Below are positions 36,676-64,000 of a stretch of DNA of 64,000 nt, in pieces. This DNA is from a virus. Its lineage: Duplodnaviria; Caudoviricetes. Each line of letters opens with the position of its first letter. Position 1 is the stretch's first letter. The position numbers were made by a program, and so were the translations under genes. The notes under the pieces are model-generated. The model searched no databases. It saw nothing but the letters and a program-made list of their open reading frames with translations, and was not told the DNA's origin. The DNA is taken from IMG/VR virus record IMGVR_UViG_3300011429_000087, positions 32,001 through 96,000 of that record; one strand, given 5' to 3'.

Positions 36676-37075
36676 TATTGTTCGGCCAATCGCTTATAAT
36701 ATATGCCGCTTTAATCACTGTTCCGGTCTATTTGATGATTTATGTCAGATAGGTGAATTAATAGCAGATCGACTAGCCCATAGATCGAGTTCTTATATTG
36801 CCAAAGCAGTACGTCGTGCCATGTTAAAAGCAGTCCCTAAGAGACAACCGGAGTCTCTTCGGGACTGCGATTTTCCTATGACTAGGGATATTGAATTGAG
36901 GCCAGAGTTTTATATTGAGGAGTTATCGGCCTCCAAACAAGAACAGCAAATGTTTACAGACCATTATATTAATAATATTTCAGTAAATCAAATAGCAAAA
37001 AACAACAAAATATCTGTGACTGCTGTTTATCGTATTCTATTAAGACTGAGGAAGGATTTTGCTAATGTCATATAA
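36659..37075 (+). CDS. Minimal sigma70-family (region 2 + region 4) factor
   Basis: IVRPIA...DDLCQIG...SYIAKAVRRAML (region 2-like) and SVNQIAKNNKISVTAVYRIL (region 4 HTH). Confidence 0.6.
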   Translation: MISRSNIVRPIAYNICRFNHCSGLFDDLCQIGELIADRLAHRSSSYIAKAVRRAMLKAVPKRQPESLRDCDFPMTRDIELRPEFYIEELSASKQEQQMFTDHYINNISVNQIAKNNKISVTAVYRILLRLRKDFANVI

Positions 37076-38870
37076 AACCCGTATCTTGTTTGTTGGTGAA
37101 GCCTCATGTCTATCTACAGGATTTTCCACTTATTATCGCGAACTCTTACCGCGTCTTCATGCAACAGGAAAATATGAAATTGCAGAATTAGGAAGTTATA
37201 TTCGGGCAGATGATCCAAAGGCTATTGACTTCGTAGCTGGAAGATGGAAGTTTTATGGTGTTATGCCGACTAACGAGCAAGAAGCTGGATCGTATAATCA
37301 AGCGTCTAGTCATCCCCGAGATCGTGGCCAAAATATTAATCAATTCGGGGCTGGCAAATTTGATTGGGCGGTCGCAGATTTTAAGCCAGATATTGTTGTT
37401 GATATTCGCGACAATTGGATGTTGACTTGGCAGCTTCGCTCACCATTTCGTAAATGGTTTAAATTAGTATGGATGCCAACAGTGGACGCCGAACCACAGC
37501 ACGAAGACTGGATTAGTGATTACGAACAGGCTGATATTGTATTAGCATACTCAGATTATGGTATTAATACTCTGATGCGTCAGAGCCAAAAAATTAAAGT
37601 TTTCCCACGCCCAATGCGACCCGGCGTAGATATCAATGGCTTTAAACCAGAAGATAGAGAAATAACTCGTGGCAAATATGGCATTAAAATGGATGTGCCT
37701 ATCATCGGCACGGTCATGCGTAACCAATCTCGAAAACTATATCCAGACCTAATTGATGCGTTTGCCAGAATGAAAAAGAAATTTCAGGGCGAGTCAGTAG
37801 TTGATAAATCGGTTTTAATGTTACATTCCTGTTGGCCCGATAACGCATATTCGTACGATTATCCTAGACATGTGATGCGACTTCACGCATACTCTTGGCT
37901 ACCTAATCATTTTAAAGGATTAAAGAATTCCGTCCTACAGACCTTCATGTGTCATAACAAAGACTGTGGCAAGACCCACATTGGTTTTGCAATGGCTATT
38001 TATGGTCGTCCTATTCAACAGAATGTAGTTCCAATGCCTTGTCCACATTGTGGTAAGAATAGTGCCACTTGCCCCACGACAGGGCAAGGATTTAATCGTG
38101 AGCAACTATCCGAGATTTATAATCTCATGGATCTTTATGTTCAGTGCTCTATTTGCGAAGGTGACGGAATGCCAATTCAGGAAGCAAAAGCCTGTGGAGT
38201 ACCTACGCTTGTAATGGACTACACTGCAATGCGTGAGAAGGGCCGTTTTCCACAGGAATATATGCATTTTGCAAAGCATAAGATTACCGAGGAAAATTAT
38301 GGTGCCCATCGGGGAGGCGAAGTAATTAGGGTTGATAGATATTACTATGAGCCAGAAACGTCTTGTATGCGAGCATTACCAGACCTAGATGATATGGCTC
38401 AAAAAATGAGAGATATTATTACAAATAAAGAACGTCATGCCAAAATGGTAACTGATGCAAGACAATGTGCAGAAAATGTGTATGATTGGGATAAATTATA
38501 TAAGCAGTGGGAATTTTTGTTTGATAGTATTAAAATAAAAGATCGTACCAATACTTGGAATTCTCCAGTTGTTGTACACGAGACTCCAAAACCGCCGACG
38601 CCTCCAGATAATCTAGACGATGAAAAATATGTTGATTGGCTATATCTAAATATTATGAAATATCCTACGGTTGATACGAATGGTGCTCAAATGTGGCTAC
38701 ATCATTTAAAGAATGGTCTTTCAAGGCAACAGCTTTTCGACCAATTTGTAAATCTATCAAAGCAGCAAGATGATGATGAAAACTCTAGACAAAAGATTCG
38801 TGCTAGTGTCGCTCTTGCTAAGGGTGAGGCAGTAATAATGCCCACAAAGCCGAAGATGGAGTTCGTATAA
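37065..38870 (+). CDS. GT-B (GT4-like) glycosyltransferase with Zn-ribbon insert and C-terminal DUF4214-like domain
   Basis: IGTVMRNQSRK, YNLMDLYVQCSICEGDGMPIQEAKACGVP, CHNKDC/CPHC insert, DDEKYVDWLY...GAQMWLHHLKNGLSRQQL. Confidence 0.85.
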   Translation: MSYKTRILFVGEASCLSTGFSTYYRELLPRLHATGKYEIAELGSYIRADDPKAIDFVAGRWKFYGVMPTNEQEAGSYNQASSHPRDRGQNINQFGAGKFDWAVADFKPDIVVDIRDNWMLTWQLRSPFRKWFKLVWMPTVDAEPQHEDWISDYEQADIVLAYSDYGINTLMRQSQKIKVFPRPMRPGVDINGFKPEDREITRGKYGIKMDVPIIGTVMRNQSRKLYPDLIDAFARMKKKFQGESVVDKSVLMLHSCWPDNAYSYDYPRHVMRLHAYSWLPNHFKGLKNSVLQTFMCHNKDCGKTHIGFAMAIYGRPIQQNVVPMPCPHCGKNSATCPTTGQGFNREQLSEIYNLMDLYVQCSICEGDGMPIQEAKACGVPTLVMDYTAMREKGRFPQEYMHFAKHKITEENYGAHRGGEVIRVDRYYYEPETSCMRALPDLDDMAQKMRDIITNKERHAKMVTDARQCAENVYDWDKLYKQWEFLFDSIKIKDRTNTWNSPVVVHETPKPPTPPDNLDDEKYVDWLYLNIMKYPTVDTNGAQMWLHHLKNGLSRQQLFDQFVNLSKQQDDDENSRQKIRASVALAKGEAVIMPTKPKMEFV

Positions 38871-39535
38871 TGCGTCTGGACAATAAATGGACGGACGAAG
38901 AATTAAGATTTTTAAGACTATATTATCCTAATACTATCAGGAATGTTTTAATTGAACATTTTCCTAAAAGAACATACGAATCTATCAGGTCAATGGCTAA
39001 ACATCTTGGAATTAAAAGAGACAACGGTTTTAGAGATACTTCTATTTGTAGACGTGGACATCAAAAACTATTAGGATCTAAATGTATTGTATGTTATGAT
39101 GAATATCAAATTAATCTTCGTAATAAAGATCCTAAATTTTTTGCTAGAGCACAAAGAAAATATAAACAACGCCATCCAGAAACAGTTAAGGAAAAACATA
39201 TAAAACATAAGCAAGATTATCGCAAACAATGGTTGTCTTATCTTAGATTGAAATATAGTGATAATCCACATTGTGCAATATGTAATATTGAAGTTTTTTG
39301 GGAACATCCAAAACATAGAAGTCGAGCATGTTTAGATCATAGACGCGGCAACGAAATTATTAAAAAATCTCCAAGAACATGGATACAAAATAAACCATGT
39401 AACGAAACGAATATTAAGATATTTGAGTCATGTGACTTTGGTCTACTCTGTAATCAGTGTAACTTATTATTACCATCAGATCAAAACTATAGATTGACAA
39501 TGGTAAATAATCTTTTAAAATATTTAAGGCAATAA
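38870..39535 (+). CDS. Endonuclease VII-like free-standing homing endonuclease
   Basis: CAIC...LDH...GLLCNQCNLLL. AT-rich. N-terminal WTDEEL..L...Y module. Confidence 0.75.
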   Translation: MRLDNKWTDEELRFLRLYYPNTIRNVLIEHFPKRTYESIRSMAKHLGIKRDNGFRDTSICRRGHQKLLGSKCIVCYDEYQINLRNKDPKFFARAQRKYKQRHPETVKEKHIKHKQDYRKQWLSYLRLKYSDNPHCAICNIEVFWEHPKHRSRACLDHRRGNEIIKKSPRTWIQNKPCNETNIKIFESCDFGLLCNQCNLLLPSDQNYRLTMVNNLLKYLRQ

Positions 39536-39536
39536 T

Positions 39537-40799
39537 ATGAAAATATGTTTCGCCTCTCCGTGTCTGGACTTCTCAGGTTTTTCCTCGGCCTCTCGTAATT
39601 TTTTACATGCGTTATACGTCGCATCACAAGATCCAGGTAGTAATTTACAATTAACTGCTAGACCTCTGCGATACGATATGCCAGACCCGGGTGCGGAATT
39701 TAGACCAGAACCGTGGCTCTCTAAGTTGTTACAAGCATCTCTACAAGATGTTGATTGTTTAATTCAGGCAACTACTTGTAATATTGAAGCTGTGCCAAAG
39801 CCGGGCATACTTAATGCCCTATATACATTTTTTGAATTAGATAGAATACCCGGACCCTGGATAGACAAGGCGAATGAATTTGATTTCATTATTGTGCCGT
39901 GTCAATATAATGGCCAAATGTTAGTAAGATGTGGTATAACAAAGCCAATTTTTATTATTCAACCCCCGACAGACTTATCACGATATGACACATTTATGAA
40001 ACCGGTTGCAGATCCAGAATTGCCCGATCTATCTGGTAAAACCATCTTCTATAATATTTGTCAGCTTTCTGGTAAGAAGGGGATTGATTCATTATTGAGA
40101 GCATATTATGCGGCATTTGCAGATATGCCAGAAGAAGTCGTGCTAGTTCTTAAAACATATATTAATATGGGATTCCGTGGTAATGACCTGAAAACGGTTA
40201 AAGATTTTATTCAGAGAGTTAAACAGGGCTGCAATATTCCAGCAGAAAAGTTGCCGCCAGTATTGCCAATAGTTAATATATTTAGCGATAATCAGATTCG
40301 TGGACTACATACAAAATGTGATGTTTATGTAAATTCTTCTAGAGCAGAAGGATTTTGCTTGCCAGCGTTTGATGCTCTCGGATTTGGCAAAACATTAATC
40401 AGTAATAATTTCGGTGGTATGGCAGAATATGTAACGAAAGATACTGCACTTATATATGGCGGCTGTATCAGTAATGTTTATGATCAGCCACATCCCGAAC
40501 CATTCCTATATAGCGGTCTTTCAAGATGGTTTGAACCATCAACTGCACATATGGCCGATGCGATGCGGTCATATCATCTATTAAAAAAGGGTGCTGCGGC
40601 TGGTACGCTAGATGAAGAATCTAATAAGATATGGACATCTATTGCACAGCAACGAGAAAACGGAAAACAGTTGGTCCAAAGATATTGTCTTCAAAAGAAC
40701 GGCCCGCCTATTTTCGGACTTCTCAAGCAGGCTTTCGATAGTTGGAAGGTCAATGGAAGAGTTATATTAAGTCAGCCAGAGGCAAAGACAAATGAATAA
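39537..40799 (+). CDS. GT-B (GT4-like) glycosyltransferase
   Basis: KKGIDSLLRAY, CDVYVNSSRAEGFCLPAFDALGFGK. Confidence 0.9.
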   Translation: MKICFASPCLDFSGFSSASRNFLHALYVASQDPGSNLQLTARPLRYDMPDPGAEFRPEPWLSKLLQASLQDVDCLIQATTCNIEAVPKPGILNALYTFFELDRIPGPWIDKANEFDFIIVPCQYNGQMLVRCGITKPIFIIQPPTDLSRYDTFMKPVADPELPDLSGKTIFYNICQLSGKKGIDSLLRAYYAAFADMPEEVVLVLKTYINMGFRGNDLKTVKDFIQRVKQGCNIPAEKLPPVLPIVNIFSDNQIRGLHTKCDVYVNSSRAEGFCLPAFDALGFGKTLISNNFGGMAEYVTKDTALIYGGCISNVYDQPHPEPFLYSGLSRWFEPSTAHMADAMRSYHLLKKGAAAGTLDEESNKIWTSIAQQRENGKQLVQRYCLQKNGPPIFGLLKQAFDSWKVNGRVILSQPEAKTNE

Positions 40800-41829
40800 T
40801 ATAATGTATGTGCCACAAATGGCATCAGTAGTAGAAAGAATAAATTCGCCTCCCAAACTTGTTCAATGTATTCAGTGTTTGAATGAAGAAGAATTTATTG
40901 GAATAACTCTTAAGTCTATCTATGATGAAGTTGATCAGATTATTGTGATTGAGGGGGCAGTTACTAATCGTCCCAAATCAACTCCAGACGGCCACTCAAT
41001 AGATAAAACGTGGGAGATTATTCAGGACTTTGTAAAGAATCACGATCCTAAAAAGAAGATATTGCCAATTAGAATTAAAAAATTCTGGAAGAATCTGGAA
41101 GAATTAAAGCAAACCTTTATTGATCTCACGAACGATGGCGATTGGATCATTATTAATGATACTGACGAGATTTATAAGCCAGAGGATATTCGAAGGGTGC
41201 GTCGAGCAATAGAGCTACATCCGCACGCCTGCGAGATCATTCCTACTTTTCTCCATTTCTATAGAGATTTTAAGCATTTATATGCTCCTGCCGCAGAGTG
41301 GCAGCCGCAACATCAGCGTATTTTTAAGCGTATCAATGGTATGAAGTATCATAGTCATCCTATCGTCACCTTACCTGACGGTCATTGTAGTTACTTCTCT
41401 ATGCATATGCAACATCGTCGATATGTTCTCGACAAGTTCTTCGTCTTCCACTATGGCTATGCTCGTTCTGGCATGGATGAGACAATGAAAGAAAAACAAG
41501 AATTCTATAAAAAGGAACTTGCAGGACACGGCCGAGCCGACATTAAATTCGATACCAAGGTCAGTGAATGGATTAATAGGGCAGAAATGAATTCACACAT
41601 TCTTGAGTTTCCCTTAGAAGAACACCCTGCTGTCATTAGGGAACATCCCATGTTCAACTTTTCAGATGCAGTTTTTGCTACACAAAAATTTGCTTCTTGG
41701 ACAGAAGACAGATTATATTCTAAGGTGCTTACTAATCAACCATACGGCAATATTTGGCTATGCATGAACCAAATTTCCGCACCAGCACTTCCATTCTTTC
41801 ACAACCAGATTAGTTTATTATCTCCCTAG
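40792..41829 (+). CDS. GT-A (GT2-like) glycosyltransferase
   Basis: LNEEEFI..TLKSI..VDQIIVIEG...SIDKT, WIIINDTDE (DxD), HYGY. Confidence 0.85.
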   Translation: MNNIMYVPQMASVVERINSPPKLVQCIQCLNEEEFIGITLKSIYDEVDQIIVIEGAVTNRPKSTPDGHSIDKTWEIIQDFVKNHDPKKKILPIRIKKFWKNLEELKQTFIDLTNDGDWIIINDTDEIYKPEDIRRVRRAIELHPHACEIIPTFLHFYRDFKHLYAPAAEWQPQHQRIFKRINGMKYHSHPIVTLPDGHCSYFSMHMQHRRYVLDKFFVFHYGYARSGMDETMKEKQEFYKKELAGHGRADIKFDTKVSEWINRAEMNSHILEFPLEEHPAVIREHPMFNFSDAVFATQKFASWTEDRLYSKVLTNQPYGNIWLCMNQISAPALPFFHNQISLLSP

Positions 41830-41852
41830 CACCACAACCTATGGAGAAAAAT

Positions 41853-43238
41853 ATGTTTTGCACAAAGCTGGCACCAAAGTTTACTATAGAAATTGACGAC
41901 ATTAATCTATGGATTACTTTTGCCGATACGGATAATGGTTTTAAGTCCGTTTATAATATTGACAAAGTAGCCAAACTTGCAGAAGACGGATTTCTAGTAC
42001 AACCGCACTGTGGACATACGATTAGTAATGGCACAGGTCTATTGCCAATCACGTACGCTCTAAGCTTTGAAAATAGTCTTGCCAGACTTACCGGTCCTCC
42101 TTCAAACCTACAAGGCGGAGATTGGCATCAGACACGTTCCAGTCACGCTACCGGCGACAATGATAGATTCTTTATTTCGGTGGGTGGCGAAAGATGTCAA
42201 CGCGGATTCATAGACGGTCTAATGTCCCTCAAATCTAGAGCGATTGACCAAGAAAATAGACCTGTAGCTTGGTGGCCTTTTACATTTAAATATAATGGCT
42301 ACTATGGCACACTTGATAATGGTGTAGATACGTGGAAATACGATCAGGCTATGCTAAATGGCGTGAGCGATCCTTCAAATGGATGGGACATCTTTGATCC
42401 CGCTCATCTTGAATCCGCATGTCTATTCTATGGAGCGGCTATAGGCGATCGTCAATGTCTAGCTAACTTCTTCATGCTTGCTGCATGGGTCTACTCAACC
42501 TTCCCGGGCGGGGGACCAAAAGCTGGTAGCGTCCAAAAAGGATGGCACGGCAGTAATCAAGAACGGGCCAGAGGATGGCGTTATTGGTTTGACGCCCGGG
42601 CCATTATGCTTGGTTTTGATACTGCCGATGCAGCCGTCACAGATATTTTCTTTGCCGGTCGGGGCCCCAAGAAACATGCCGTAGCTATTTTAAAAGATAC
42701 ACTTGATAATCCTCAACCGCTTGGAGGAGATCATGCCGATGAACGAACAATGGTTGATTTTAAAGATGGAAGTGGCGAAATTAAGGGATTCTATCCGTGG
42801 GCAAACGGCATTATGGTTGGTGGTTGGGGCTATTTCCGCAGAACAGGCATTGTCAATGATCCATTAAAGACACAAGTGGATACGTGGATGTTAGATCGTG
42901 CGACAGAAGTTATTAAAAGAACGGTTAGCTTTAATGGGACATCTTATGCAGCTTCTAGCACCAGTACATTTGTCCAGGCGGATGTAGATAAAGCCAATGC
43001 CCTAGAAAAAGATAAAGGGCATTTCTATGAGTTAGTTGATTTCGGCGGCGGCGTAGGCGTCATTAGAGATAAGCCCCGCAAGGCTGATTCTGAAGTAATG
43101 GCTGGAGGTCTTGCTTTACTTTATAATTATGATAATTTGACCGTACAGACTTTATTAAATGTATGCGATAAAGTTGGATCAACCGATTATGATAAGCGGG
43201 CTAAATATTTGGATGTCGCATACGGACAGATTTCTTAA
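41853..43238 (+). CDS. Hypothetical Trp/Gly/Asp-rich protein (possible carbohydrate-active enzyme)
   Basis: GGAG RBS before ATG 41853. Own terminator. No family recognised with confidence. Confidence 0.6.
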   Translation: MFCTKLAPKFTIEIDDINLWITFADTDNGFKSVYNIDKVAKLAEDGFLVQPHCGHTISNGTGLLPITYALSFENSLARLTGPPSNLQGGDWHQTRSSHATGDNDRFFISVGGERCQRGFIDGLMSLKSRAIDQENRPVAWWPFTFKYNGYYGTLDNGVDTWKYDQAMLNGVSDPSNGWDIFDPAHLESACLFYGAAIGDRQCLANFFMLAAWVYSTFPGGGPKAGSVQKGWHGSNQERARGWRYWFDARAIMLGFDTADAAVTDIFFAGRGPKKHAVAILKDTLDNPQPLGGDHADERTMVDFKDGSGEIKGFYPWANGIMVGGWGYFRRTGIVNDPLKTQVDTWMLDRATEVIKRTVSFNGTSYAASSTSTFVQADVDKANALEKDKGHFYELVDFGGGVGVIRDKPRKADSEVMAGGLALLYNYDNLTVQTLLNVCDKVGSTDYDKRAKYLDVAYGQIS

Positions 43239-43265
43239 GTAAGATGAATCATTACTGACATAATG

Positions 43266-45298: not shown

Positions 45299-45305
45299 CA
45301 AAGTC

Positions 45306-54687: not shown

Positions 54688-54691
54688 AAAT

Positions 54692-58198: not shown

Positions 58199-58902
58199 AT
58201 CAAGAAAAATATTCGGATATGCAGCGTAGGCAATATGAAATAGAAGCTTCCAGATGGTCACTATCCGAACGCGATCATGTGGTTGGCTCTTTCGAAGCCC
58301 ACAATAATCATAAAGATTATGAGGACTTCTTGTTATTTGGTTTTGATAGGCCGAACCTAATCGCCCTGGATTTCGGTTGCGGCCCCGGACGCAATCTCGT
58401 TCATTTTGGTCCACAATTTAAACGTATGGACGGAGTTGATATTGCTCAAAACAATTTAGAGAAAGCCAAGTTATGGCTAACCCATAATAATGTTTGGAAA
58501 GATGATATAAGACTAATTATTTGTAATGGTAGAGACTTAGCCAATATCGAAAACGATTATTACGATCTTGTGATTAGTACAATTACTCTACAGCATATTT
58601 GCGTTCATTCTATTCGCTATAGCTTATTTCAGGAATTTCATAGAGTCATAAAGTTGGGCGGATGGATTAGTCTACAAATGGGATATGGGCCAAAAGTAGA
58701 TATGCGTCAGAAAGCAGATTATTACGACGATTACGTTGATGCCGAAGGTACAAATGGTCACGCCGATACTATGGTAACTTCTCCAGATCAATTGTCTGGC
58801 GATCTAACAAAGATTGGTTTTAAAAATTTCTATCATGATATTAGGCCAACTGGTCCGGGCGATAAACATTCCGCTTGGATTTTCTTTAGGGCACAAAAAT
58901 GA
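58195..58902 (+). CDS. Class I SAM methyltransferase
   Basis: ALDFGCGPGRN, DGVDIA, YDLVISTITLQHI. Confidence 0.9.
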   Translation: MNQEKYSDMQRRQYEIEASRWSLSERDHVVGSFEAHNNHKDYEDFLLFGFDRPNLIALDFGCGPGRNLVHFGPQFKRMDGVDIAQNNLEKAKLWLTHNNVWKDDIRLIICNGRDLANIENDYYDLVISTITLQHICVHSIRYSLFQEFHRVIKLGGWISLQMGYGPKVDMRQKADYYDDYVDAEGTNGHADTMVTSPDQLSGDLTKIGFKNFYHDIRPTGPGDKHSAWIFFRAQK

Positions 58903-59549
58903 TTAGAGCAATTCTTTATGATTTAGATGGTGTTTTAGTAGATGCTGTCAATATACATAAGAACGCCTTTAATAGTGCCATCCAACAAATTGTCGGCATC
59001 ACTTTAACAGACAAAGAGCATGAAGAAGAATTTAATGGTTTGCCAACTAAGAGAAAGCTAGACATTCTTCTACAGCAAAATAGAATTTATGCGGCACACG
59101 TTCCTTTTATAGAACGTCTTAAACAAGAAATAACCATATCGGCCATCAACGCTTTTTTTACTGTAGATTATACAAAAACCACGCTTCATTCGTGGACAAA
59201 ACAACATAATATTAAAATAGCATGTGTCACAAATTCAATTCGTGAAACTGCCGAACTGATGTTAATTAAGACGGCCCAACTTAGATATATGAACGTCTTA
59301 ATCAGTAATCAAGATGTTGATTATCCTAAGCCGAGTCCAGAAGGATATTTTAAGGCTATGGCTCTTTTGGGTGTTAAACCGTCTTCTACATTAATTGTAG
59401 AGGATTCTGAAAAGGGCGTTTCGGCAGCCATTAAGACTGGTGCTTACGTAATGAGAGTGCATTCACCGGCCGATGTTAATATAGATTCTATTAGGAGCCA
59501 AGTAATTGAAAACAGCTTTGGTATTATCAGGCCAACCACGTTGCCTTGA
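58899..59549 (+). CDS. HAD-superfamily phosphatase
   Basis: YDLDGVLVD, VTNS, KPSPEGY, IVEDSEKG. Confidence 0.92.
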   Translation: MIRAILYDLDGVLVDAVNIHKNAFNSAIQQIVGITLTDKEHEEEFNGLPTKRKLDILLQQNRIYAAHVPFIERLKQEITISAINAFFTVDYTKTTLHSWTKQHNIKIACVTNSIRETAELMLIKTAQLRYMNVLISNQDVDYPKPSPEGYFKAMALLGVKPSSTLIVEDSEKGVSAAIKTGAYVMRVHSPADVNIDSIRSQVIENSFGIIRPTTLP

Positions 59550-60213
59550 TCAATGTTTCGATTCTTTAAAGAAATTCATCATCGCCCCTCTTGAGGCCGA
59601 TGTATTTTTTCATTTCTGGAATACATCATTTCTTCCGTTTGAGGATCGTATAACTAAGGTTTTATATGGCACAGAATATATACCAGAATGGAAAGCGTTT
59701 GATGGAGAATATGCCTCCAAGTACATGCCCCTTCTTAATCCGAAAAGATTTATAGTTGAGCCACAAATCTATATTAATGATTCTCATTTTCGTCAAGCTT
59801 GTAATCCTATGAATAGTAGGATGCAGGCAAAAGCATTCTTGCATGTGTTAAGCATGTTTTACTCTATTAATCGGGCTCATCAATGTATGACGGAATGGAC
59901 AGAAAAGACTGGCATAAAATATGATATTATGATTCGATGCAGAACGGATATGTTGTTTTGGCAAACGCCAGATATTAGTGGTGCCAATAACATTCTGATT
60001 CCAGAGAATGACGGTTACGGCGGATTAAACGATCAATTAGCTATTAGTGATAATTGGAACCATATGAACGTCTATGCTTCTTGCCTAGATAATATTCAGA
60101 CTTTATTTGACGCCGGAACTAATTTTCATCCAGAAACCATTTTAAGAGATCATCTCAAGATGCATAATATACCTGTGAGGCTTATTGGTCAAAGTTATGG
60201 ATTAATCAGATGA
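59506..60213 (+). CDS. Putative glycosyltransferase (ALxLSGQPR family)
   Basis: TALVLSGQPR, DVFFHFW, SMFYSI, YDIMIRCRTD, NDQLAI, HPETIL. AGGAG RBS with a TTG start. Confidence 0.55.
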   Translation: MKTALVLSGQPRCLDQCFDSLKKFIIAPLEADVFFHFWNTSFLPFEDRITKVLYGTEYIPEWKAFDGEYASKYMPLLNPKRFIVEPQIYINDSHFRQACNPMNSRMQAKAFLHVLSMFYSINRAHQCMTEWTEKTGIKYDIMIRCRTDMLFWQTPDISGANNILIPENDGYGGLNDQLAISDNWNHMNVYASCLDNIQTLFDAGTNFHPETILRDHLKMHNIPVRLIGQSYGLIR

Positions 60214-60944
60214 AACTACTCGTTCCTATGTCGGGTCGCGGACAGCGATTTAAAGATAAGGGCTATACATTCCCAAAACCATTAATAGATGTTAATGGCA
60301 AACCCATGATAGAAGTTGTATTAAATTCGCTACCAAAAGCTGATGAATACATCTTTATTGTTCAATTAGAACATGAACATCAATATGGCATTAGTAATTT
60401 ACTTAACAGGCTGACGAACGATAGAGCCGTCTGTATCGTGACTGATAAAATAACTGAAGGTGCGGCGTGTAGTGCTCTATTGGCTCGTGAACTTTTATTA
60501 GATGATGAGCCACTTTTAATTGCTAATTCCGATCAATTTGTTGAATATAGCATAGACAATTTTAATCTTATTACTAAGATTGCCCAACGCGACACGCAAC
60601 TGGTTCCACCACACGCAATGGCGGGCATGATCTTTACGTTTCATGCAACACATCCTAAGTGGAGTTTTGTTCAAGTCAGAAATCATTGGATTACTAGAGT
60701 TGCCGAAAAAGATCCAATCTCTAACATTGCTACCTGTGGCATTTATTATTGGACTCGTTCAGCCGACTTTGTGAATTCTGCCGATGCGATGATTGCGGCG
60801 AATGATCGGGTTAATGGAGAATTTTATATAGCTCCTACTTTTAACTATCTCATTAAAGATTATCAATGGATTGCCCCATTCTTTGTTGATAAGATGTGTG
60901 GATTAGGAACTCCAGAAGATTTAGAAGCTTTTCTAAATGAATAA
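60210..60944 (+). CDS. Sugar-phosphate nucleotidyltransferase
   Basis: PMSGRGQRF..GYTFPKPLIDV.GKPMI, TEGAACS, IANSDQ, VAEK..IS..ATCGIY, NGEFYIAP, LGTPEDL. Confidence 0.9.
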   Translation: MKLLVPMSGRGQRFKDKGYTFPKPLIDVNGKPMIEVVLNSLPKADEYIFIVQLEHEHQYGISNLLNRLTNDRAVCIVTDKITEGAACSALLARELLLDDEPLLIANSDQFVEYSIDNFNLITKIAQRDTQLVPPHAMAGMIFTFHATHPKWSFVQVRNHWITRVAEKDPISNIATCGIYYWTRSADFVNSADAMIAANDRVNGEFYIAPTFNYLIKDYQWIAPFFVDKMCGLGTPEDLEAFLNE

Positions 60945-61632
60945 TCTACAACAAATTATGGTGGCTAGTTTACAGCCATACGCACCAATCAAATATAAGT
61001 TCACTAATCAAAGTTTACAGATGGATATGGCGGGCAGTCCTCTATCCATTCGCGAAAATGAGTTTGAGTTCTTAAAGAAATACATTATTATTAATAACTT
61101 GAAAACTGGCTTTGAATTAGGTACTGGTTTTGGAATATCTACAGCAGCCATTGGATTGGGTTTTAGAAGAACCGGCGGCCATTTAATTTCTATGGATGCG
61201 TATACAGAAGAAAAATTTCAGAGCTATGAATATGTAGCATCCAATAAAGACGTATATCGAGATGCGATAGGATATAAATCCGCCAAGTTTCTTATGAAAG
61301 AATTAGAACTAGAAAATACCGTAGATATTGTTTGTGGCTGGAGTCCTACAGACATACCTACAATACTTAAACCGTACCTTCAACAGTCTCGTCAATTAGA
61401 TTTTGTATTTATAGACGCAATGCATAACGATGAATCAGTGATGAATGACTTAACTGCCATCTTTCCGTTTATGTCGAAAAAATTTGTATTATTCTTACAT
61501 GACGTTCATTGCTTTTCGCAATCTACAAAAGACCATATTAAAAGTTTATTTGGCAAAATATATGCCGTTATCCCTAGCTGTAGTTTAGATATTGGGTTAG
61601 GTTATAATCTGGCCATAGTTAATAGGTTATAA
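60937..61632 (+). CDS. Class I SAM methyltransferase (Methyltransf_24-like)
   Basis: FELGTGFGIST, LDFVFIDAMH, FLHD. Confidence 0.88.
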   Translation: MNNLQQIMVASLQPYAPIKYKFTNQSLQMDMAGSPLSIRENEFEFLKKYIIINNLKTGFELGTGFGISTAAIGLGFRRTGGHLISMDAYTEEKFQSYEYVASNKDVYRDAIGYKSAKFLMKELELENTVDIVCGWSPTDIPTILKPYLQQSRQLDFVFIDAMHNDESVMNDLTAIFPFMSKKFVLFLHDVHCFSQSTKDHIKSLFGKIYAVIPSCSLDIGLGYNLAIVNRL

Positions 61633-61633: not shown

Positions 61634-62569
61634 ATGTCTACAATCCTTGTAACTGGTGCCGGTGGATTCGTTGGTAAGAATCTAATTAGATATTGGATGG
61701 CTAATAATCCAGATTATGATAGATTGCTTACACCATCTAGCAAAGATGTCAATTTAGTATCATATGGAAGTACTTATCAATTTATACGTAGGATTGGTAA
61801 ACTAGATGGTATTATCCACTTAGCGGCACTATGTGGCGGCATAGGTATTAATAAGGAACGGCCCGGCGATTTTATATATCAGAACATGATGATGGGTGCT
61901 AATATATTAGAATCCGCTCGACAGAACTCCATTCCCAAGGTGCTTTTATTGGGCACAGTTTGTCAATACCCAAAATTTGCCACCCCTCCATTTAAAGAGG
62001 ACGATATTTGGAATGGTTATCCAGAGGAAACAAACGCACCATATGGTATTGCCAAAAAAGCAATTATGGAAATGGGGCAAGCGTATCGTCGTCAATTTAA
62101 AATTAATATTATCACGCTTATCCCCACAAATCTTATTGGCGAATTTGACCATTTTGAAGAGGATAGATCACATGTTGTTCCCGCCCTCATTAAGAAGTTT
62201 GGTGATGCAATATATAATAAGCTTCCTTACGTTACCGTTTGGGGCGATGGAACAGCTAGTCGTGAATTCCTCGATGCTAGCGATTGTGCTCGTTCAATCT
62301 ATCTAGCATATAAAAATTATAATGGAAATTTACCAGTTAATATTGGAAACAATAAAGAGGTCACAATTAAAGAACTTGTCTATATGATTGCCAAGTTAAT
62401 GAATTATCGTGGCGACATTATTTGGGATAAAACAAAACCTAACGGGCAGCCGCGTCGTTGTCTAGACGTTTCTAGGGCAAAAGCACTATTTGGTTTTGAA
62501 GCCAAAATCACTCTAGAAGAATCGCTAAATAGAGCTATAGAATATGCGAAGGAGAATGGATATGCATAA
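61634..62569 (+). CDS. fcl: GDP-L-fucose synthase
   Basis: VTGAGGFVG, HLAALCGGI, LGTVCQYPK, NAPYGIAKK, PTNL, SHVVPALI, WGDGTASREFL, KPNGQPRR. Confidence 0.93.
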   Translation: MSTILVTGAGGFVGKNLIRYWMANNPDYDRLLTPSSKDVNLVSYGSTYQFIRRIGKLDGIIHLAALCGGIGINKERPGDFIYQNMMMGANILESARQNSIPKVLLLGTVCQYPKFATPPFKEDDIWNGYPEETNAPYGIAKKAIMEMGQAYRRQFKINIITLIPTNLIGEFDHFEEDRSHVVPALIKKFGDAIYNKLPYVTVWGDGTASREFLDASDCARSIYLAYKNYNGNLPVNIGNNKEVTIKELVYMIAKLMNYRGDIIWDKTKPNGQPRRCLDVSRAKALFGFEAKITLEESLNRAIEYAKENGYA

Positions 62570-63053
62570 ACGTCGTCTTTTGCCAAGTAAAATACCTATA
62601 ATAGATAAATTTAATTTATTGATAAATAAGAATTCCGGTATATTCGGCGAGAGTAACGATTATCTCACAGAATGTTGGCAGTGGTGTGGCGAAATACTAA
62701 ATAATGGTTATGGCCGAATGACATATATGCATAGCCGATTCATGGCTCATAGATGGTCATACGAATATTTTAATGGTCCAATCCAAGACGGTATGCAGAT
62801 AGATCATCTCTGTAGAGTTAGAAGATGCGTGAATCCAAAACACTTAGAACAGGTTACATGTTCTGAAAACTTGGCACGCGGCAATACCGTTAATGCAATT
62901 AATAGGAAGAAAACACATTGTATTCGTAATCACGAATTTACTGAAATTAATACTGGTATAGATTTTCGTGGCGATAGATATTGTAGAGAATGTGCTAGAC
63001 AAAAGGCTCTAAAATTTAGAGCCAAAAAGAAACTGGAGAATCCTTCATGTTAA
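62556..63053 (+). CDS. Free-standing HNH endonuclease
   Basis: CWQWCG...GYG...AHRWSY...IDHLCRVRRCVNPKHLEQVT..EN, with C-terminal THC..NH..YCREC. AGGAG RBS. Start is 62556 or 62562. Confidence 0.9.
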   Translation: MDMHKRRLLPSKIPIIDKFNLLINKNSGIFGESNDYLTECWQWCGEILNNGYGRMTYMHSRFMAHRWSYEYFNGPIQDGMQIDHLCRVRRCVNPKHLEQVTCSENLARGNTVNAINRKKTHCIRNHEFTEINTGIDFRGDRYCRECARQKALKFRAKKKLENPSC

Positions 63054-64000
63054 AAGCTGTTATAACTGGCTGCACTGGGCAAGATGGATTTTATCTAACT
63101 AAACTACTTCTCAATAAGGGTTATCGAGTTATAGGCGTGCGTCGCCGAACCTCTCTACCCACGGATCGCCGCCTTGCGGCTTTTAGAGGGACTCCAAACT
63201 TTGTTTTGGTTGATGGGGACGTAACTGATCAGGGCAGTATTGAACAGGTCATAGGTGACTTTAAGCCCGACGAATTCTATCATCTAGCCGCACAATCCCA
63301 CGTTCAGAGGTCTTGGGATTATCCCACTATGACGGCACAAGTAACTGGCCTCGGCACATTAAATTGTCTTGAGGCAATTCGTCGTGTCTATCCACAGTGC
63401 AGATTTTATTTCGCCGGTTCTTCTGAGCAGTTCGGCAATTCTGCCGAAGGGGGCGTCCAGCTAGATGAATCGTCACCCATGATTCCAGAATCTCCATATG
63501 CCGCAGCTAAAGTCTTCGGCTATAACATTTCTCAGGTCTATCGCAGATCCTACAATATGTTCGTTAGTTGCGGAATATTATTCAATCATGAATCGCCAAT
63601 GCGTGGCGAAGAATTTGTGACTCGTCGCATTACAATGGGATTAGCTAGAATCAAACACGGCCTACAGGCACATTTAACGCTCGGTAATCTAAACGCAAAG
63701 CGTGATTGGGGATTCGCTGGTGACTATGTGGAAGCGATGTGGAAGATGCTCCAAATCGACCGCCCAATGGATTTCGTTATTGCCACCGGCGAAACCCACA
63801 GCGTTCAGGAATTCGTTGACGCGGCCTGTGAATTCTATGGACTAAATGCTGCCCAAGTGATTCAGAGCGACCCTAAACTATTTCGCCCCAAGGATGTTAA
63901 TGTCCTCATCGGGAATTCGCGACTCGCTAAAAAGCATCTACAGTGGGAAGCAAAGACGCATTTTAATTCTCTTGTTACCGGGATGTGTGCATATGATTTA
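63047..64000 (+). CDS. gmd: GDP-mannose 4,6-dehydratase (3'-truncated, not in the ORF track)
   Basis: MLKAVITGCTGQDGFYL, HLAAQSHV, SSEQFG, SPYAAAK, GILFNHESPMRGEEFVTRRI, LGNLNAKRDWG. Confidence 0.95.
   Translation, partial: MLKAVITGCTGQDGFYLTKLLLNKGYRVIGVRRRTSLPTDRRLAAFRGTPNFVLVDGDVTDQGSIEQVIGDFKPDEFYHLAAQSHVQRSWDYPTMTAQVTGLGTLNCLEAIRRVYPQCRFYFAGSSEQFGNSAEGGVQLDESSPMIPESPYAAAKVFGYNISQVYRRSYNMFVSCGILFNHESPMRGEEFVTRRITMGLARIKHGLQAHLTLGNLNAKRDWGFAGDYVEAMWKMLQIDRPMDFVIATGETHSVQEFVDAACEFYGLNAAQVIQSDPKLFRPKDVNVLIGNSRLAKKHLQWEAKTHFNSLVTGMCAYDL

What the first reader, a model, noticed from the sequence alone, without database searches (positions are those of the whole stretch)
37065..64000. A soluble glycan-synthesis cluster of at least 27 kb with no membrane or export components
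Seen: ~12 GTs (4 GT4-like, 4 GT2-like, 2 CgeB-like, 2 putative GT-A families), 6 methyltransferases, an NTP-transferase, a HAD phosphatase and gmd+fcl, all co-oriented and mostly translationally coupled. The cluster continues past the window edge. No flippase, Wzy/Wzz, ABC exporter, undecaprenyl-P initiating transferase or multi-TM GT-C is visible, and no base hydroxymethylase or TET/JBP as expected for DNA glycosylation. Established: serotype-converting phages use membrane Gtr proteins, and T4-type DNA glucosylation needs only 1-2 GTs. Inference: the acceptor is cytoplasmic and the product is a complex, fucose-containing, O-methylated glycan. The SG-rich virion proteins are the simplest candidate acceptor.
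Basis: partly seen in the sequence, partly recalled or inferred. Interest (0 to 1): 0.8.

Follow-up and report, generated by a model that had tools for sequence, protein, structure and literature searches.

The report
Phage soluble glycan-building locus, target unproven
An uncultured 165-kb tailed phage and all 17 large relatives examined keep a block of about ten soluble sugar-transferring enzymes plus fucose-making and methylating enzymes next to their DNA polymerase gene. None of them encodes export machinery or DNA-base enzymes, so the sugar chain probably goes on the phage's own tail proteins, but no chemistry shows this.

Summary
Window 37059-64000 (the last gene ends at 64057) is one co-oriented, mostly overlapping gene block. 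It holds 9 Pfam-supported glycosyltransferases (4 GT4, 3 GT2, 2 CgeB-like), one further GT-A-like protein, one GT fragment and 6 methyltransferases. It also holds a beta-phosphoglucomutase-family HAD, a sugar-1-P nucleotidyltransferase, GMD and an Fcl-like enzyme. Interspersed are 4 homing-endonuclease genes, MazG, a GMP-reductase-like gene and an (alpha/alpha)6-barrel enzyme. A conserved terminator splits the block. It barely runs past the window edge.

New here: 17 related IMG/VR records (five complete) all carry the locus at the same place. Ten GTs, Fcl and GMD are core, and the methylation and extra-sugar genes vary. The 18 records have no hit to Bac_transf, WecA/MraY, Wzx, thymidylate-synthase/hydroxymethylase or TGT models, and only sub-threshold Tet/JBP hits. 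The record and four complete relatives lack any large polytopic membrane protein.

The acceptor stays inferred. Virion proteins are the best candidate (about 0.45). Ser-Gly is 2.2-2.5-fold enriched only in tail, baseplate and fibre proteins, and that serine is unusually conserved. A T4 control shows no such enrichment. Soluble GT2/GT4 enzymes could equally use host lipid carriers.

The scan has noted similar phage glycan islands in 33 or more other genomes, and published cyanophage clusters are alike.

The parts
37059..38870 (+). GT603: GT4-type GT-B glycosyltransferase with a four-Cys insert and C-terminal DUF4214. It is the first gene of the locus, present in 17/18 clade genomes.
   Evidence: Pfam Glycos_transf_1 E 1.9e-11 and DUF4214. 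AF2 model pLDDT 82.5. Foldseek matches MshA, BshA, GlgM and chlorovirus NY-2A GT 3oy2_A (TMt 0.76). Invariant C298, C303, C328 and C331. Pan-locus family 2.
38870..39535 (+). Homing-endonuclease-like insert (NUMOD1), absent from the sister phage.
   Evidence: Pfam NUMOD1 E 7.6e-4, below cut-off. No ortholog in G001.
39537..40799 (+). GT4 glycosyltransferase (420 aa), core in 18/18.
   Evidence: Pfam Glycos_transf_1 E 2.1e-8. Family 0.
40792..41829 (+). GT2 glycosyltransferase (345 aa), core in 18/18, no TM segment.
   Evidence: Pfam Glycos_transf_2 E 2.6e-6. Family 1. TM scan.
41841..43238 (+). (alpha/alpha)6-barrel carbohydrate-active-like protein (465 aa), accessory (G000 and G001 only). Likely a glycan hydrolase, lyase or epimerase; function untested.
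   Evidence: No Pfam, NCBIfam or PHROG hit. Only 13 homologues among 5.8 billion proteins. AF2 pLDDT 81.5. VIA Z 16.1 to GH88 4q88_B, Z 14-15 to GH105 and cellobiose 2-epimerase.
43265..43294 (+). Intrinsic terminator that splits the locus.
   Evidence: 13-bp stem with 7 GC pairs and a T-run. Conserved in G001 with compensatory stem changes; folds at -25 and -29 kcal/mol.
43314..44174 (+). GT2 glycosyltransferase (286 aa), core in 16/18.
   Evidence: Pfam E 1.1e-11. Family 4.
44162..45298 (+). GT4 glycosyltransferase (378 aa), core in 16/18.
   Evidence: Pfam Glycos_transf_1 E 1.8e-11. Family 5.
45150..46982 (+). HNH endonuclease domain fused in frame to a GMP-reductase/IMPDH-family enzyme. 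The true start is probably downstream of 45150.
   Evidence: Pfam IMPDH E 1.3e-61 and HNH_3. NCBIfam GMP reductase 180 bits, below cut-off. Only 34% identical to the G001 gene at the same position.
47189..48274 (+). GT4 glycosyltransferase (361 aa), core in 16/18.
   Evidence: Pfam Glyco_trans_1_4 E 4.9e-14 and Glyco_transf_4 N-domain.
48452..49180 (+). Probable GT-A-fold glycosyltransferase of a virus-dominated family (242 aa), in 14/18.
   Evidence: No Pfam hit. ESM Atlas structure TM 0.84 to a cluster that is 99% PF00535, with neighbours named hexosyltransferase or GT8. Family 11. Lead only.
49551..50147 (+). FkbM-type SAM methyltransferase, accessory.
   Evidence: Pfam Methyltransf_21 E 5.8e-15. 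Present only in G000 and G001.
50397..51257 (+). CgeB-like glycosyltransferase (286 aa), core in 16/18.
   Evidence: Pfam PF13524 E 2.5e-16.
51254..51943 (+). GT2 glycosyltransferase (229 aa), core in 16/18. It is the best-conserved gene of the locus (92% identical to G001).
   Evidence: Pfam E 2e-12..
52222..52554 (+). MazG-like nucleotide pyrophosphohydrolase. It lies elsewhere in more distant relatives and is not a glycan gene.
   Evidence: Pfam MazG E 7.3e-9. Position varies.
52946..53917 (+). CgeB-like glycosyltransferase (323 aa), core in 16/18.
   Evidence: Pfam PF13524 E 3.6e-31.
53914..55085 (+). LAGLIDADG homing endonuclease followed by a duplicated C-terminal CgeB-like GT fragment (133 aa).
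   Evidence: Pfam LAGLIDADG_3. PF13524 88 bits on 54686-55084. Both absent from G001.
55087..56982 (+). Three SAM methyltransferases: Methyltransf_24 (217 aa), PHROG methyltransferase (208 aa) and Methyltransf_11 (213 aa, near-core in 15/18).
56982..58198 (+). Two unknown ORFs (169 and 243 aa), accessory.
   Evidence: No hits in Pfam or PHROGs. The PDB sequence search was run on the 243-aa ORF only and found nothing.
58195..58902 (+). SAM methyltransferase (Methyltransf_11, 235 aa), accessory.
   Evidence: Present in 4/18.
58899..60944 (+). Accessory sugar-activation cassette: beta-phosphoglucomutase-family HAD, DUF7796 protein and sugar-1-P nucleotidyltransferase.
   Evidence: Pfam. NCBIfam PGMB-YQAB-SF 102 bits; generic nucleotidyltransferase. 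DUF7796 matches phrog_13607 at E 3e-26 and is a virus-dominated family. HAD and NTP-transferase occur in 7/18.
60937..61632 (+). Methyltransf_24 methyltransferase (231 aa), accessory.
   Evidence: No ortholog in G001.
61634..62569 (+). Fcl-like GDP-4-keto-6-deoxymannose epimerase/reductase, core in 16/18.
   Evidence: NCBIfam GDPFucSynFcl E 3.1e-78, 263 bits against a 500-bit cut-off.
62544..63053 (+). HNH homing endonuclease inserted between fcl and gmd.
   Evidence: Pfam HNH_3 E 7.5e-15. Absent from G001.
63047..64000 (+). GDP-mannose 4,6-dehydratase. The gene ends 57 nt beyond the window, at 64057. Core in 17/18 and the 3' anchor of the locus.
   Evidence: Pfam GDP_Man_Dehyd E 3.8e-109. TIGR01472 344 bits against a 415-bit equivalog cut-off. 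Clade-wide.

Best explanation
SHOWN BY SEQUENCE.
- The locus is a phage-borne, self-contained cytoplasmic glycan assembly line.
- GMD plus an Fcl-like enzyme make GDP-L-fucose or a related GDP-6-deoxyhexose from host GDP-mannose.
- In this subclade a beta-PGM-type HAD, a DUF7796 protein and a nucleotidyltransferase probably activate a second sugar.
- Ten soluble GTs (four GT4, three GT2, two CgeB-like, one GT-A-like) would add sugars one after another.
- Up to six SAM methyltransferases would O-methylate the product.
- The ten GTs, Fcl and GMD are a conserved core of an uncultured clade of 148-183-kb myoviruses.
- The methyltransferases, the extra sugar pathway and the (alpha/alpha)6 enzyme are variable decoration.

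INFERRED.
- The genes lie after DnaE and, in 13 of 18 relatives, directly behind a phage sigma-factor gene. They lack the putative late-promoter motif.
- So they are probably made with the replication (middle) genes and persist into late infection.
- The enzymes then build the glycan directly on serines of a conserved Ser-Gly-hydrophobic motif in the phage's tail-tip, baseplate, sheath and fibre proteins, in the cytoplasm before or during assembly.
- Particles would leave the cell carrying a fucose-containing, methylated glycan coat on the tail.
- This would work like the cytoplasmic capsid glycosylation of chloroviruses and the virion O-glycosylation of mycobacteriophages.

The stated confidence refers to the acceptor. 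That the block is a functional soluble glycan-synthesis locus I rate at about 0.9.
For: GENE CONTENT.

FUNCTIONAL CONSTRAINT. Against the sister phage, median dN in the locus is 0.17 with synonymous sites saturated (pS about 0.7). Structural genes give 0.16 and replication genes 0.19.

CLADE-WIDE CONSERVATION.
- All 17 relatives with MCP 59-95% identical have 3-7 PF00534 genes in one block.
- All 17 have GMD plus an Fcl-like neighbour.
- Gene order DnaE - GT603 - GT420 - GT2 ... Fcl - GMD - Rad52-like is kept in G001, G009, G017 and G013 at 35-92% identity.
- Pan-locus clustering gives the ten GTs in 14-18 of 18 genomes, Fcl in 16 and GMD in 17.

NO PHAGE MEMBRANE MACHINERY.
- TM scans of G000 and four complete genomes.
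- Bac_transf, WecA/MraY and Wzx hit 0/18.

NO ROUTE TO A GLYCOSYLATABLE BASE.
- PF00303 0/18 and TGT 0/18; Tet_JBP only 12-bit noise.
- dCMP deaminase and ThyX are present, pointing to ordinary thymidine.

CANDIDATE ACCEPTOR.
- SG observed/expected is 153/62.3 in 14 tail, fibre and baseplate proteins, against 157/157 in the rest. The reverse dipeptide GS is 1.12.
- Tail orthologs of five relatives give 2.24-2.53.
- The SG serine is conserved at 0.63-0.96, against 0.29-0.62 for other serines in the same proteins. TerL, DnaB and DnaE have only 2-4 SG sites each (0.5 against 0.30-0.44), too few to compare.
- Twelve T4 tail and baseplate proteins show 1.11.

OTHER SUPPORT.
- A second, conserved GT pair with a cupin lies just upstream of the terminase genes.
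- Distant homologues of GT603 sit in GT plus methyltransferase mini-cassettes beside portal and terminase genes of Synechococcus phage S-CBS4 and Tetrasphaera phage TJE1.

PRECEDENTS.
- Chlorovirus GTs are soluble and expressed early. They act in the cytoplasm on the capsid protein using virus-encoded GMD and GMER (PMC5408694).
- Cluster O mycobacteriophages carry an O-methyltransferase and three GTs that modify capsid and tail tube (PMC11600133, citing Freeman et al. 2023).
Against: - No chemistry exists for any member of the clade, and none is cultured.
- The SG motif may be structural, for example a turn in beta-helical fibre repeats. I had only one outside control (T4).
- No clade member lacks the GTs, so co-occurrence could not be tested against a negative.
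- The major capsid protein and the portal have no SG. The capsid C-terminus lacks the Ser/Gly tail reported for glycosylated mycobacteriophages.
- The locus lies in the replication and nucleotide module. It contains MazG and a GMP-reductase-like gene, and has no conserved copy of the putative late-promoter motif found before structural genes.
- GT2 and GT4 are the standard families of lipid-linked glycan assembly. GT603's fold neighbours act on small molecules or lipids (MshA, BshA, GlgM, PimB', PglA), not on proteins.
- Sequence does not identify an initiating protein-O-glycosyltransferase.
Confidence: 0.45

Rival explanations
1. Host-envelope remodelling. The soluble phage GTs work at the inner face of the host membrane on undecaprenyl-phosphate-linked intermediates. 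Host enzymes start, flip and ligate these, so the infected cell displays an altered O-antigen, capsule or wall polymer. This could block superinfection or keep released progeny from binding to cell debris. It is the reading usually given for the 'LPS / cell-wall' clusters of cyanomyoviruses.
For: - GT2, GT4, FkbM and Methyltransf_24 enzymes and gmd/fcl are the typical content of O-antigen and capsule loci.
- Such GTs are normally soluble or peripheral, so the missing membrane genes do not exclude this.
- The locus has a conserved core with a variable decoration region. G015 has a wholly different middle part with FnlA/B/C-like, UDP-GlcNAc 2-epimerase, dehydrogenase and sulfotransferase-like genes. 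This resembles surface-polysaccharide loci.
- Middle-gene placement would allow time for export.
- Published cyanophage clusters are interpreted this way (PMC12801897, PMC9602691).
Against: - The acceptor-proximal GTs are conserved in 17-18 of 18 phages whose GC content runs from 39 to 49%. That suggests differing hosts, whereas host glycan acceptors usually differ between hosts. Und-PP-GlcNAc is widespread, so this point is weak.
- A roughly 27-kb investment in a lytic phage for a product that needs intact host export late in infection is costly.
- It does not explain the conserved SG serines on tail proteins.
- No serotype-converting Gtr-type or acetyltransferase membrane proteins are present.
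Confidence: 0.25
2. A soluble, non-protein cytoplasmic product. This could be a free or lipid- or metabolite-anchored O-methylated oligo- or polysaccharide, comparable to the cytoplasmic polymethylated polysaccharides of mycobacteria, or a glycosylated small molecule. Such a product would serve the infection, for example by sequestering metabolites, adjusting osmolarity, or acting as a matrix released at lysis.
For: - All enzymes are soluble.
- There are many methyltransferases.
- GT603's closest folds include enzymes that act on soluble acceptors (MshA, BshA, GlgM, sucrose-phosphate synthase) and the methylmannose-polysaccharide mannosyltransferase 7qsg.
- The (alpha/alpha)6 protein's Foldseek list includes the methylmannose polysaccharide hydrolase MmpH 7qsj.
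Against: - Fold matches among GT-B enzymes and (alpha/alpha)6 barrels are generic.
- No precedent exists in phages.
- It does not explain the SG pattern.
- The (alpha/alpha)6 gene is confined to two genomes.
Confidence: 0.12
3. DNA hypermodification. The GTs build a glycan on a modified base of the phage genome to evade restriction, as in T-even phages and the 5hmC-glycan phages.
For: - The locus lies between DnaE and RNR, dCMP deaminase and ThyX, and contains MazG and a guanine-nucleotide enzyme.
- Phage GTs that place di- and tri-saccharides on 5hmC are known (Pyle et al. 2024, as cited in PMC12619734).
Against: - No thymidylate-synthase-family hydroxymethylase in 18/18 records, five of them complete.
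- No Tet/JBP above noise and no TGT/DpdA.
- dCMP deaminase plus ThyX indicate canonical dTTP synthesis.
- Ten GTs and six methyltransferases far exceed any known DNA glycan.
Confidence: 0.05

Closest known systems
'LPS / cell-wall synthesis and modification' gene clusters of large T4-like cyanomyoviruses (P-SSM2, S-SCSM1, S-SCSM2R)
   Same: Both are lytic phages of about 150-200 kb that carry a dense block of soluble GTs with nucleotide-sugar enzymes. S-SCSM1 has GMD, GDP-L-fucose synthase and about 8 GTs or fucosyltransferases (PMC9602691). S-SCSM2R has 13 GTs and epimerases (PMC12801897). The target is unknown there too.
   Different: There is no detectable sequence kinship. The CgeB-like GT and the (alpha/alpha)6 protein find nothing in those phages. 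GT603 finds only 21-25% matches in other small phages. The capsid lineage differs: the only cultured MCP hit is Bacillus phage G at 23.5%. This locus has six methyltransferases and a fixed position after DnaE, and it is core to a whole clade. I did not test those cyanophage clusters for membrane genes.
Chlorovirus (PBCV-1) cytoplasmic glycosylation of the major capsid protein
   Same: Both have virus-encoded GMD plus GMER/Fcl and soluble GTs without signal peptides that are expressed before the structural genes. Both include glycan methylation, and both show a conserved glycan core with variable decoration across the clade (PMC5408694, PMC7826918). GT603's second-ranked Foldseek match, and its best by TM score, is a chlorovirus NY-2A GT (3oy2_A, TMt 0.76).
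   Different: The host there is eukaryotic and the glycans are N-linked on the capsid protein. Here the capsid lacks the candidate motif, and the tail, baseplate and fibre proteins are the candidates. The chlorovirus GT genes are scattered rather than in one locus. The fold likeness is generic GT4.
Mycobacteriophage virion O-glycosylation cassettes (cluster O Corndog-type, cluster F1 Che8-type; Freeman et al. 2023, read only through PMC11600133 and PMC12619734)
   Same: Phage-encoded GTs plus an O-methyltransferase modify virion proteins in the cytoplasm of a bacterial host without any phage membrane component.
   Different: Those cassettes have 2-4 GTs and lie with the structural genes. Their sugars go on the C-termini of the capsid and tail-tube subunits. 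Here there are 10 GTs in the replication module, and the capsid C-terminus has no such tail. No sequence similarity was found in the phage collection.
Bacillus spore-surface glycosylation (CgeB and Sps enzymes), from my own knowledge, not tested
   Same: Soluble CgeB-family (PF13524) and GT2 enzymes decorate a protein surface that is assembled inside another cell's cytoplasm, without export machinery.
   Different: That is a cellular system. Only the Pfam family is shared, and orthology was not tested.

Membership tests
Phage-encoded soluble multi-GT glycan clusters (cyanomyovirus 'LPS/cell-wall' type) | Five or more GT genes clustered with nucleotide-sugar synthesis genes in a lytic tailed-phage genome. 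| tested here: met
   10 GTs, GMD, Fcl-like, nucleotidyltransferase and HAD within 27 kb. TerL, portal, MCP, tape measure and a sheath-like protein lie on the same contig.
Phage-encoded soluble multi-GT glycan clusters (cyanomyovirus 'LPS/cell-wall' type) | Sequence homology of the cluster genes to those of P-SSM2, S-SCSM1 or S-SCSM2R. | tested here: not met
   tblastn of the CgeB-like GT, the (alpha/alpha)6 protein and GT603 against 50,697 phage records returned none of these phages. Only three genes were tried.
Virion protein glycosylation systems (mycobacteriophage or chlorovirus type) | Glycan demonstrated on virion proteins. | not testable with these tools
   Needs mass spectrometry or glycan staining of particles. 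No clade member is cultured.
Virion protein glycosylation systems (mycobacteriophage type) | GT and methyltransferase genes embedded in the structural module, and a Ser/Gly-type C-terminal tail on capsid and tail-tube subunits. | tested here: not met
   The main locus lies after DnaE. Only a two-GT mini-cassette lies beside the terminase. The MCP has no SG and no Ser/Gly C-terminal tail. The tail tube was not identified.
Virion protein glycosylation systems (chlorovirus type) | Soluble virus GTs without signal peptide or TM segment, plus virus GMD and GMER. | tested here: met
   TM scan. GMD and Fcl-like.
DNA glycosylation (T-even / 5hmC-glycan / base J type) | An enzyme that creates the hydroxymethylated base: a dCMP/dUMP hydroxymethylase of the thymidylate-synthase family, or a Tet/JBP dioxygenase. 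| tested here: not met
   PF00303 hits 0/18. PF12851 gives only two 12-bit hits against a cut-off of 34.9.
Wzx/Wzy- or ABC-dependent surface polysaccharide loci | An initiating phosphoglycosyltransferase (Bac_transf or WecA/MraY family), a flippase or ABC permease, and a polymerase or ligase encoded in the locus. | tested here: not met
   PF02397, PF00953 and PF01943 hit 0/18. The TM scans of G000 and four complete genomes find no large polytopic membrane protein; the only ORF over 170 aa with three segments is a 246-aa ORF of G015, and its segments are weak. The host could supply these parts.
Serotype-converting phage Gtr systems | GtrA flippase, GtrB bactoprenol GT with C-terminal TM helices, and a polytopic Gtr(type) transferase. 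| tested here: inconclusive
   The TM scans cover the required membrane proteins and find no large polytopic protein in G000 or four complete genomes. The GT2 proteins lack C-terminal TM helices. The GtrA Pfam model itself was not run.

The most novel reading that the evidence does not exclude
A whole uncultured clade of roughly 150-180-kb soil and environmental myoviruses runs an autonomous cytoplasmic O-glycosylation system. Three universally conserved GTs start, and seven further core GTs extend, a fucose-containing glycan on the serine of a Ser-Gly-hydrophobic sequon. This sequon is displayed about 150 times on tail-tip, baseplate, sheath and fibre proteins but not on the capsid. Lineage-specific methyltransferases and extra sugar pathways then diversify the outer part. 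That would be a bacterial-virus counterpart of chlorovirus capsid glycosylation, with a proteoglycan-like sequon and a 'serotype-like' variable region.
Probability: 0.35. Interest if true: 0.8.

Novelty: new member of a known kind. Interest (0 to 1): 0.55.

Why it matters
Large blocks of soluble sugar-transferring genes keep turning up in big phages, and nobody knows where the sugars go.

This locus is a good place to settle the question, for five reasons:
- It is core to a clade with five complete genomes.
- It has a clear conserved core of ten GTs plus the GDP-fucose genes.
- It has a variable decoration part.
- Every known export route and DNA-base route is absent from the phage genomes.
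- There is a specific candidate acceptor motif that can be tested: conserved Ser-Gly serines found only on tail, baseplate and fibre proteins.

If the tail really is glycosylated, the glycan would bear on host recognition, on resistance to proteases and grazers, and on how phage particles are seen by immune systems or environmental lectins. If the glycan instead goes to the host envelope, lytic soil phages would be rewriting host surfaces on a large scale.

Tried and rejected
SEARCHES THAT FOUND LITTLE OR NOTHING.
- Megablast of 20 kb of the locus against 50,697 phage records: no match.
- tblastn of DnaE: nothing above 35% identity.
- tblastn of the CgeB-like GT and the (alpha/alpha)6 protein: essentially nothing.
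- The search for related loci with DnaE, and with the (alpha/alpha)6 alignment in viral and metagenome contigs: only the sister contig came back. The MCP query then opened the clade.
- PDB sequence searches for the 243-aa ORF, DUF7796 and GT603: nothing usable.

The contexts of the more distant (alpha/alpha)6 homologues, including a 169-kb JGI contig, could not be read.

UNINFORMATIVE RESULTS.
- Sigma-70 promoter-like sites in the locus are at chance level (69 against 60 +/- 7, and 65 against 57 +/- 8).
- Foldseek on GT603 could not separate protein-acting from lipid- or small-molecule-acting GT4 enzymes.
- A scan for Ser/Thr-rich mucin-like stalks found none.

TESTS THAT COULD NOT BE MADE.
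- dN/dS proper could not be computed for many genes because synonymous sites are saturated.

READINGS CONSIDERED AND REJECTED.
- That the GMP-reductase-like gene boosts GTP for GDP-sugars. By architecture and best model it looks like GMP reductase, which works in the opposite direction, so it stays unexplained.
- That the block continues beyond the window. It ends at GMD or the next ORF.

Full report
WHAT THE WINDOW IS. The window is bases 32001-96000 of a 164,551-bp linear IMG/VR virus record, about 80% complete by CheckV. All genes from the terminase to about 110 kb of the record lie on the + strand. The order is:
- large terminase, portal and major capsid protein;
- a sheath-like protein, the tape measure (window 5503-10554) and three large tail proteins (14418-24333);
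- UvsX-like recombinase, DnaB, primase, a PD-(D/E)XK nuclease and a DnaE-type polymerase at 32779-36033;
- the block in question;
- a Rad52-like and a Whirly-like protein, an FAD oxidoreductase, ribonucleotide reductase, dCMP deaminase and ThyX.

No cultured phage is close. DnaE is at most 35% identical to anything in 50,697 phage records. The capsid protein matches only Bacillus phage G, at 23.5%.

CHECK OF THE OBSERVATION. Pfam, NCBIfam and PHROGs confirm the following in window 37059-64057:
- four GT4 (Glycos_transf_1) genes, three GT2 genes and two CgeB-like (PF13524) genes;
- five Pfam methyltransferases and one PHROG methyltransferase;
- a HAD of the beta-phosphoglucomutase family and a generic sugar-1-phosphate nucleotidyltransferase;
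- a DUF7796 protein;
- an Fcl-like SDR whose best model is GDP-L-fucose synthase (263 bits, under the 500-bit equivalog cut-off);
- GMD.

The 242-aa ORF at 48452 has no Pfam hit. Its ESM-Atlas model superposes at TM 0.84 on a virus cluster that is 99% GT2, and its neighbours are named hexosyltransferase or GT8. I count it as a probable tenth GT. The 133-aa ORF at 54684 is a duplicated C-terminal CgeB-like fragment behind a LAGLIDADG gene.

Three more GTs lie elsewhere in the record. A CgeB-like plus weak-GT2 pair lies just upstream of the terminase genes, followed by a small cupin. A GT2 lies on the minus strand at 116.8 kb.

Almost all junctions in the block overlap or are a few bases apart. 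The block is not purely glycan-related. It holds four homing-endonuclease genes or domains, MazG and a GMP-reductase/IMPDH-family gene. A 13-bp-stem terminator at 43265-43294 is kept in the sister phage with compensatory changes. The block ends at GMD, 57 nt past the window edge, or one unknown ORF later.

THE UNKNOWN 465-AA GENE. The ORF at 41841-43238 has 13 homologues among 5.8 billion proteins, none annotated. Its AlphaFold model (pLDDT 81.5) is a small beta-sandwich plus an (alpha/alpha)6 barrel. The barrel aligns with GH88 (Z 16.1), GH105 and the AGE/cellobiose-2-epimerase group (Z 13-15). It is therefore a carbohydrate-active-type fold, but it occurs only in this phage and its sister.

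THE CLADE. A capsid-protein search of IMG/VR gave 26 related contigs at 59-95% identity. I examined the 17 largest, five of which have terminal repeats and are therefore complete.
- All 17 have 3-7 PF00534 genes in one block and GMD next to an Fcl-like gene.
- Whole-genome blastp for G001, G009, G017 and G013 shows the same order, DnaE - GT603 - GT420 - GT2_345 - GT2_286 - GT378 - GT361 - GT-A-like - GMP-reductase-like - CgeB - GT2_229 - CgeB - methyltransferase ... Fcl - GMD - unknown - Rad52-like, at 35-92% identity.
- I clustered all ORFs of the 18 loci. GT420 and GT2_345 occur in 18 genomes; GT603 and GMD in 17; five further GT families (six genes per genome) and Fcl in 16; one methyltransferase in 15; the GT-A-like gene in 14.
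- The rest is accessory: 142 of 219 families are singletons.
- The FkbM, the Methyltransf_24 genes, the second Methyltransf_11, DUF7796 and the (alpha/alpha)6 gene are restricted to a few genomes. The HAD plus nucleotidyltransferase pair occurs in 7.
- The most distant complete genome, G015, keeps the first three GTs and GMD. It fills the middle with UDP-GlcNAc 2-epimerase, FnlA/FnlB-like SDRs, a UDP-Glc/GDP-Man dehydrogenase, a GlnA-like protein and a sulfotransferase-like protein.

The locus therefore has a conserved core and a variable decoration part. Against the sister phage, nonsynonymous divergence in the locus (median dN 0.17) equals that of structural genes (0.16), while synonymous sites are saturated. 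The genes are under ordinary purifying selection.

WHAT IS ABSENT.
- A hydropathy scan finds no ORF with three or more TM-like segments in the record.
- In four complete relatives it finds mostly 60-165-aa two-segment (holin-like) ORFs. The one larger exception is a 246-aa ORF of G015 with three weak segments.
- Models for polyisoprenyl-phosphate phosphoglycosyltransferases (PF02397), the WecA/MraY family (PF00953) and Wzx-type flippases (PF01943) hit 0 of 18 records, although they ring in 10-13 of 14 control genomes.
- The thymidylate-synthase/hydroxymethylase family hits 0 of 18 and TGT/DpdA 0 of 18. Tet/JBP gives only two 12-bit hits against a cut-off of 34.9.

WHERE THE GLYCAN GOES. Sequence cannot decide this. 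I weigh four readings.

(1) Virion proteins, about 0.45.
- Ser-Gly is 2.46-fold over expectation in 14 tail, baseplate, sheath and fibre proteins (153 observed, 62 expected). The reverse dipeptide is at 1.12 and the rest of the proteome at 1.00.
- The same holds in the tail orthologs of five relatives, at 2.24-2.53.
- In alignments with up to five relatives the SG serine is kept at 0.63-0.96. Other serines in the same proteins are kept at 0.29-0.62 and all residues at 0.43-0.65. TerL, DnaB and DnaE have only 2-4 SG sites each, too few to compare.
- The position after SG is I, V or L in about half of the sites.
- Twelve T4 tail, baseplate and fibre proteins show no enrichment (1.11), so this is not a general property of myovirus tails. 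That is a single control.
- The capsid and portal have no SG.
- This repeats, independently, what two earlier notes of this scan reported for the same genome.
- Precedents exist. Chlorovirus GTs are soluble, expressed early, act in the cytoplasm on the capsid protein and use viral GMD and GMER (PMC5408694). Chloroviruses share a conserved glycan core with variable outer sugars (PMC7826918). Cluster O mycobacteriophages modify capsid and tail tube with three GTs and an O-methyltransferase (PMC11600133).
- Weak homologues of GT603 lie in GT plus methyltransferase mini-cassettes beside portal and terminase genes in S-CBS4 and TJE1.

(2) Host envelope through host lipid-carrier machinery, about 0.25. 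GT2 and GT4 enzymes of surface-polysaccharide pathways are themselves soluble or peripheral, so their solubility proves nothing. The core-plus-variable layout is also typical of such loci. This is the usual reading of the cyanophage clusters (PMC12801897, PMC9602691).

(3) A soluble non-protein product, about 0.12.

(4) DNA, about 0.05. No known route to an attachment base exists, and dCMP deaminase plus ThyX point to ordinary thymidine.

TIMING.
- The 9-mer TAGTGTA[AT]T occurs 15 times on the + strand. Most copies lie at intergenic sites before structural genes, and eight lie at orthologous sites in the sister phage. I read it as a candidate late promoter.
- The locus has one copy, inside a coding region and not conserved.
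- In 13 of 18 relatives the gene directly upstream of and overlapping GT603 is a sigma-70-family factor (Sigma70_r2 E 1.6e-12).
- In this phage the place is taken by a 138-aa HTH protein with only a faint likeness.

Together with the DnaE neighbour, this suggests middle-phase expression. That is compatible with all four readings and is what is seen for chlorovirus GTs.

GT603. This is the first and nearly universal gene of the locus. It models as a GT4-type GT-B enzyme (pLDDT 82.5) with an insert holding four invariant cysteines and a helical C-terminal DUF4214. Foldseek ranks MshA, a chlorovirus NY-2A GT (3oy2_A, best TM), GlgM, sucrose-phosphate synthase, BshA, PimB' and PglA. This fixes the fold, not the acceptor.

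COMPARISON AND NOVELTY. Large soluble GT clusters with gmd and fcl are published for cyanomyoviruses, where the target is likewise unknown. This scan's index lists 34 notes on such islands in at least 33 genomes. The kind is therefore known.

What is specific here:
- the size (27 kb, 10 GTs, 6 methyltransferases);
- the absence of any sequence kinship to cultured phages;
- a fixed place behind DnaE and a sigma factor;
- core status across 18 genomes, with a defined variable part;
- the formal exclusion of export and DNA routes in complete genomes;
- a concrete candidate sequon.

I class it as a new member of a known kind, with interest 0.55.

LIMITS.
- No experiment exists.
- TM prediction was a simple hydropathy scan.
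- CAZy assignment was not available.
- The host is unknown.
- The SG control rests on T4 alone.

Noticed in passing
L070:14789-15445 (G017) and orthologs in 13/18 relatives; window 36659-37075 in this phage: A sigma-70-family gene (Sigma70_r2 E 1.6e-12, weak r4) lies directly upstream of and overlaps the first GT of the locus in most relatives. This phage has instead a 138-aa HTH ORF with only a 29-residue weak likeness to it.
   Followed up: partly
record 19525, 21902, 29224, 32880, 45587, 45899, 56331, 106172 (window 880, 13587, 13899, 24331, 74172 where inside or near): The motif TAGTGTA[AT]T, often overlapping the upstream stop codon, recurs at intergenic sites before structural genes and at orthologous sites in the sister phage. 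It is a candidate late promoter. No conserved copy lies inside the GT locus.
   Followed up: partly
window 45150-46982: The GMP-reductase/IMPDH-family gene keeps its place in the locus in four genomes. The copy here is only 31-34% identical to the others, while its neighbours are 71-87% identical. It is also fused in frame to an HNH_3 endonuclease domain. This looks like an endonuclease-linked allelic replacement. The enzyme's role inside a glycan locus is unexplained.
   Followed up: partly
G013:C1:53468-55546 (in L077): The GMD gene of this complete relative is a single 692-aa frame. Its Pfam match breaks after model position 231 and resumes about 320 codons later. This may be an intein or an in-frame endonuclease insertion.
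   Followed up: no
window 53914-55085: A LAGLIDADG endonuclease gene sits between an intact CgeB-like GT and a second copy of only the GT's C-terminal ~130 codons (PF13524, 88 bits). Both are absent from the sister phage.
   Followed up: partly
record 14091-16151 (L005): A second small glycan cassette lies just upstream of the terminase genes: a CgeB-like GT, a weak GT2 and a 134-aa cupin with a faint phosphomannose-isomerase C-terminal likeness (E 0.007). The two GTs are conserved in G001, G009, G017 and G013; the cupin was not checked there.
   Followed up: partly
record 106267-110708 (L007:11267-15708): A second late-type module sits after ThyX, with a copy of the candidate late-promoter motif upstream. 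It encodes six proteins. One is a 393-aa repeat protein with SG at 3.3 times expectation, and others look fibre-like. They are probably extra tail fibres or decoration proteins.
   Followed up: partly
G015:C1:60000-82300 (L087, L088): The most distant complete relative replaces the middle of the locus. The new genes are a UDP-GlcNAc 2-epimerase, FnlA/FnlB-like SDRs, a UDP-Glc/GDP-Man dehydrogenase, a glutamine-synthetase-like protein, a sulfotransferase-like protein and a trypsin-like protease. This points to a different, possibly N-acetylated, acidic or sulfated glycan.
   Followed up: partly
window 31486-32169: By eye, the ORF between the PD-(D/E)XK nuclease gene and the gene before DnaE reads like a ClpP-type serine protease. 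No tool was run on it.
   Followed up: no
record 104042-106174 (L007:9042-11171): A 710-aa protein after ThyX has a signal-peptide-like N-terminus and a faint DUF3604 (PHP-like) match. It is conserved in the sister phage at 75% identity. Its function is unknown.
   Followed up: no
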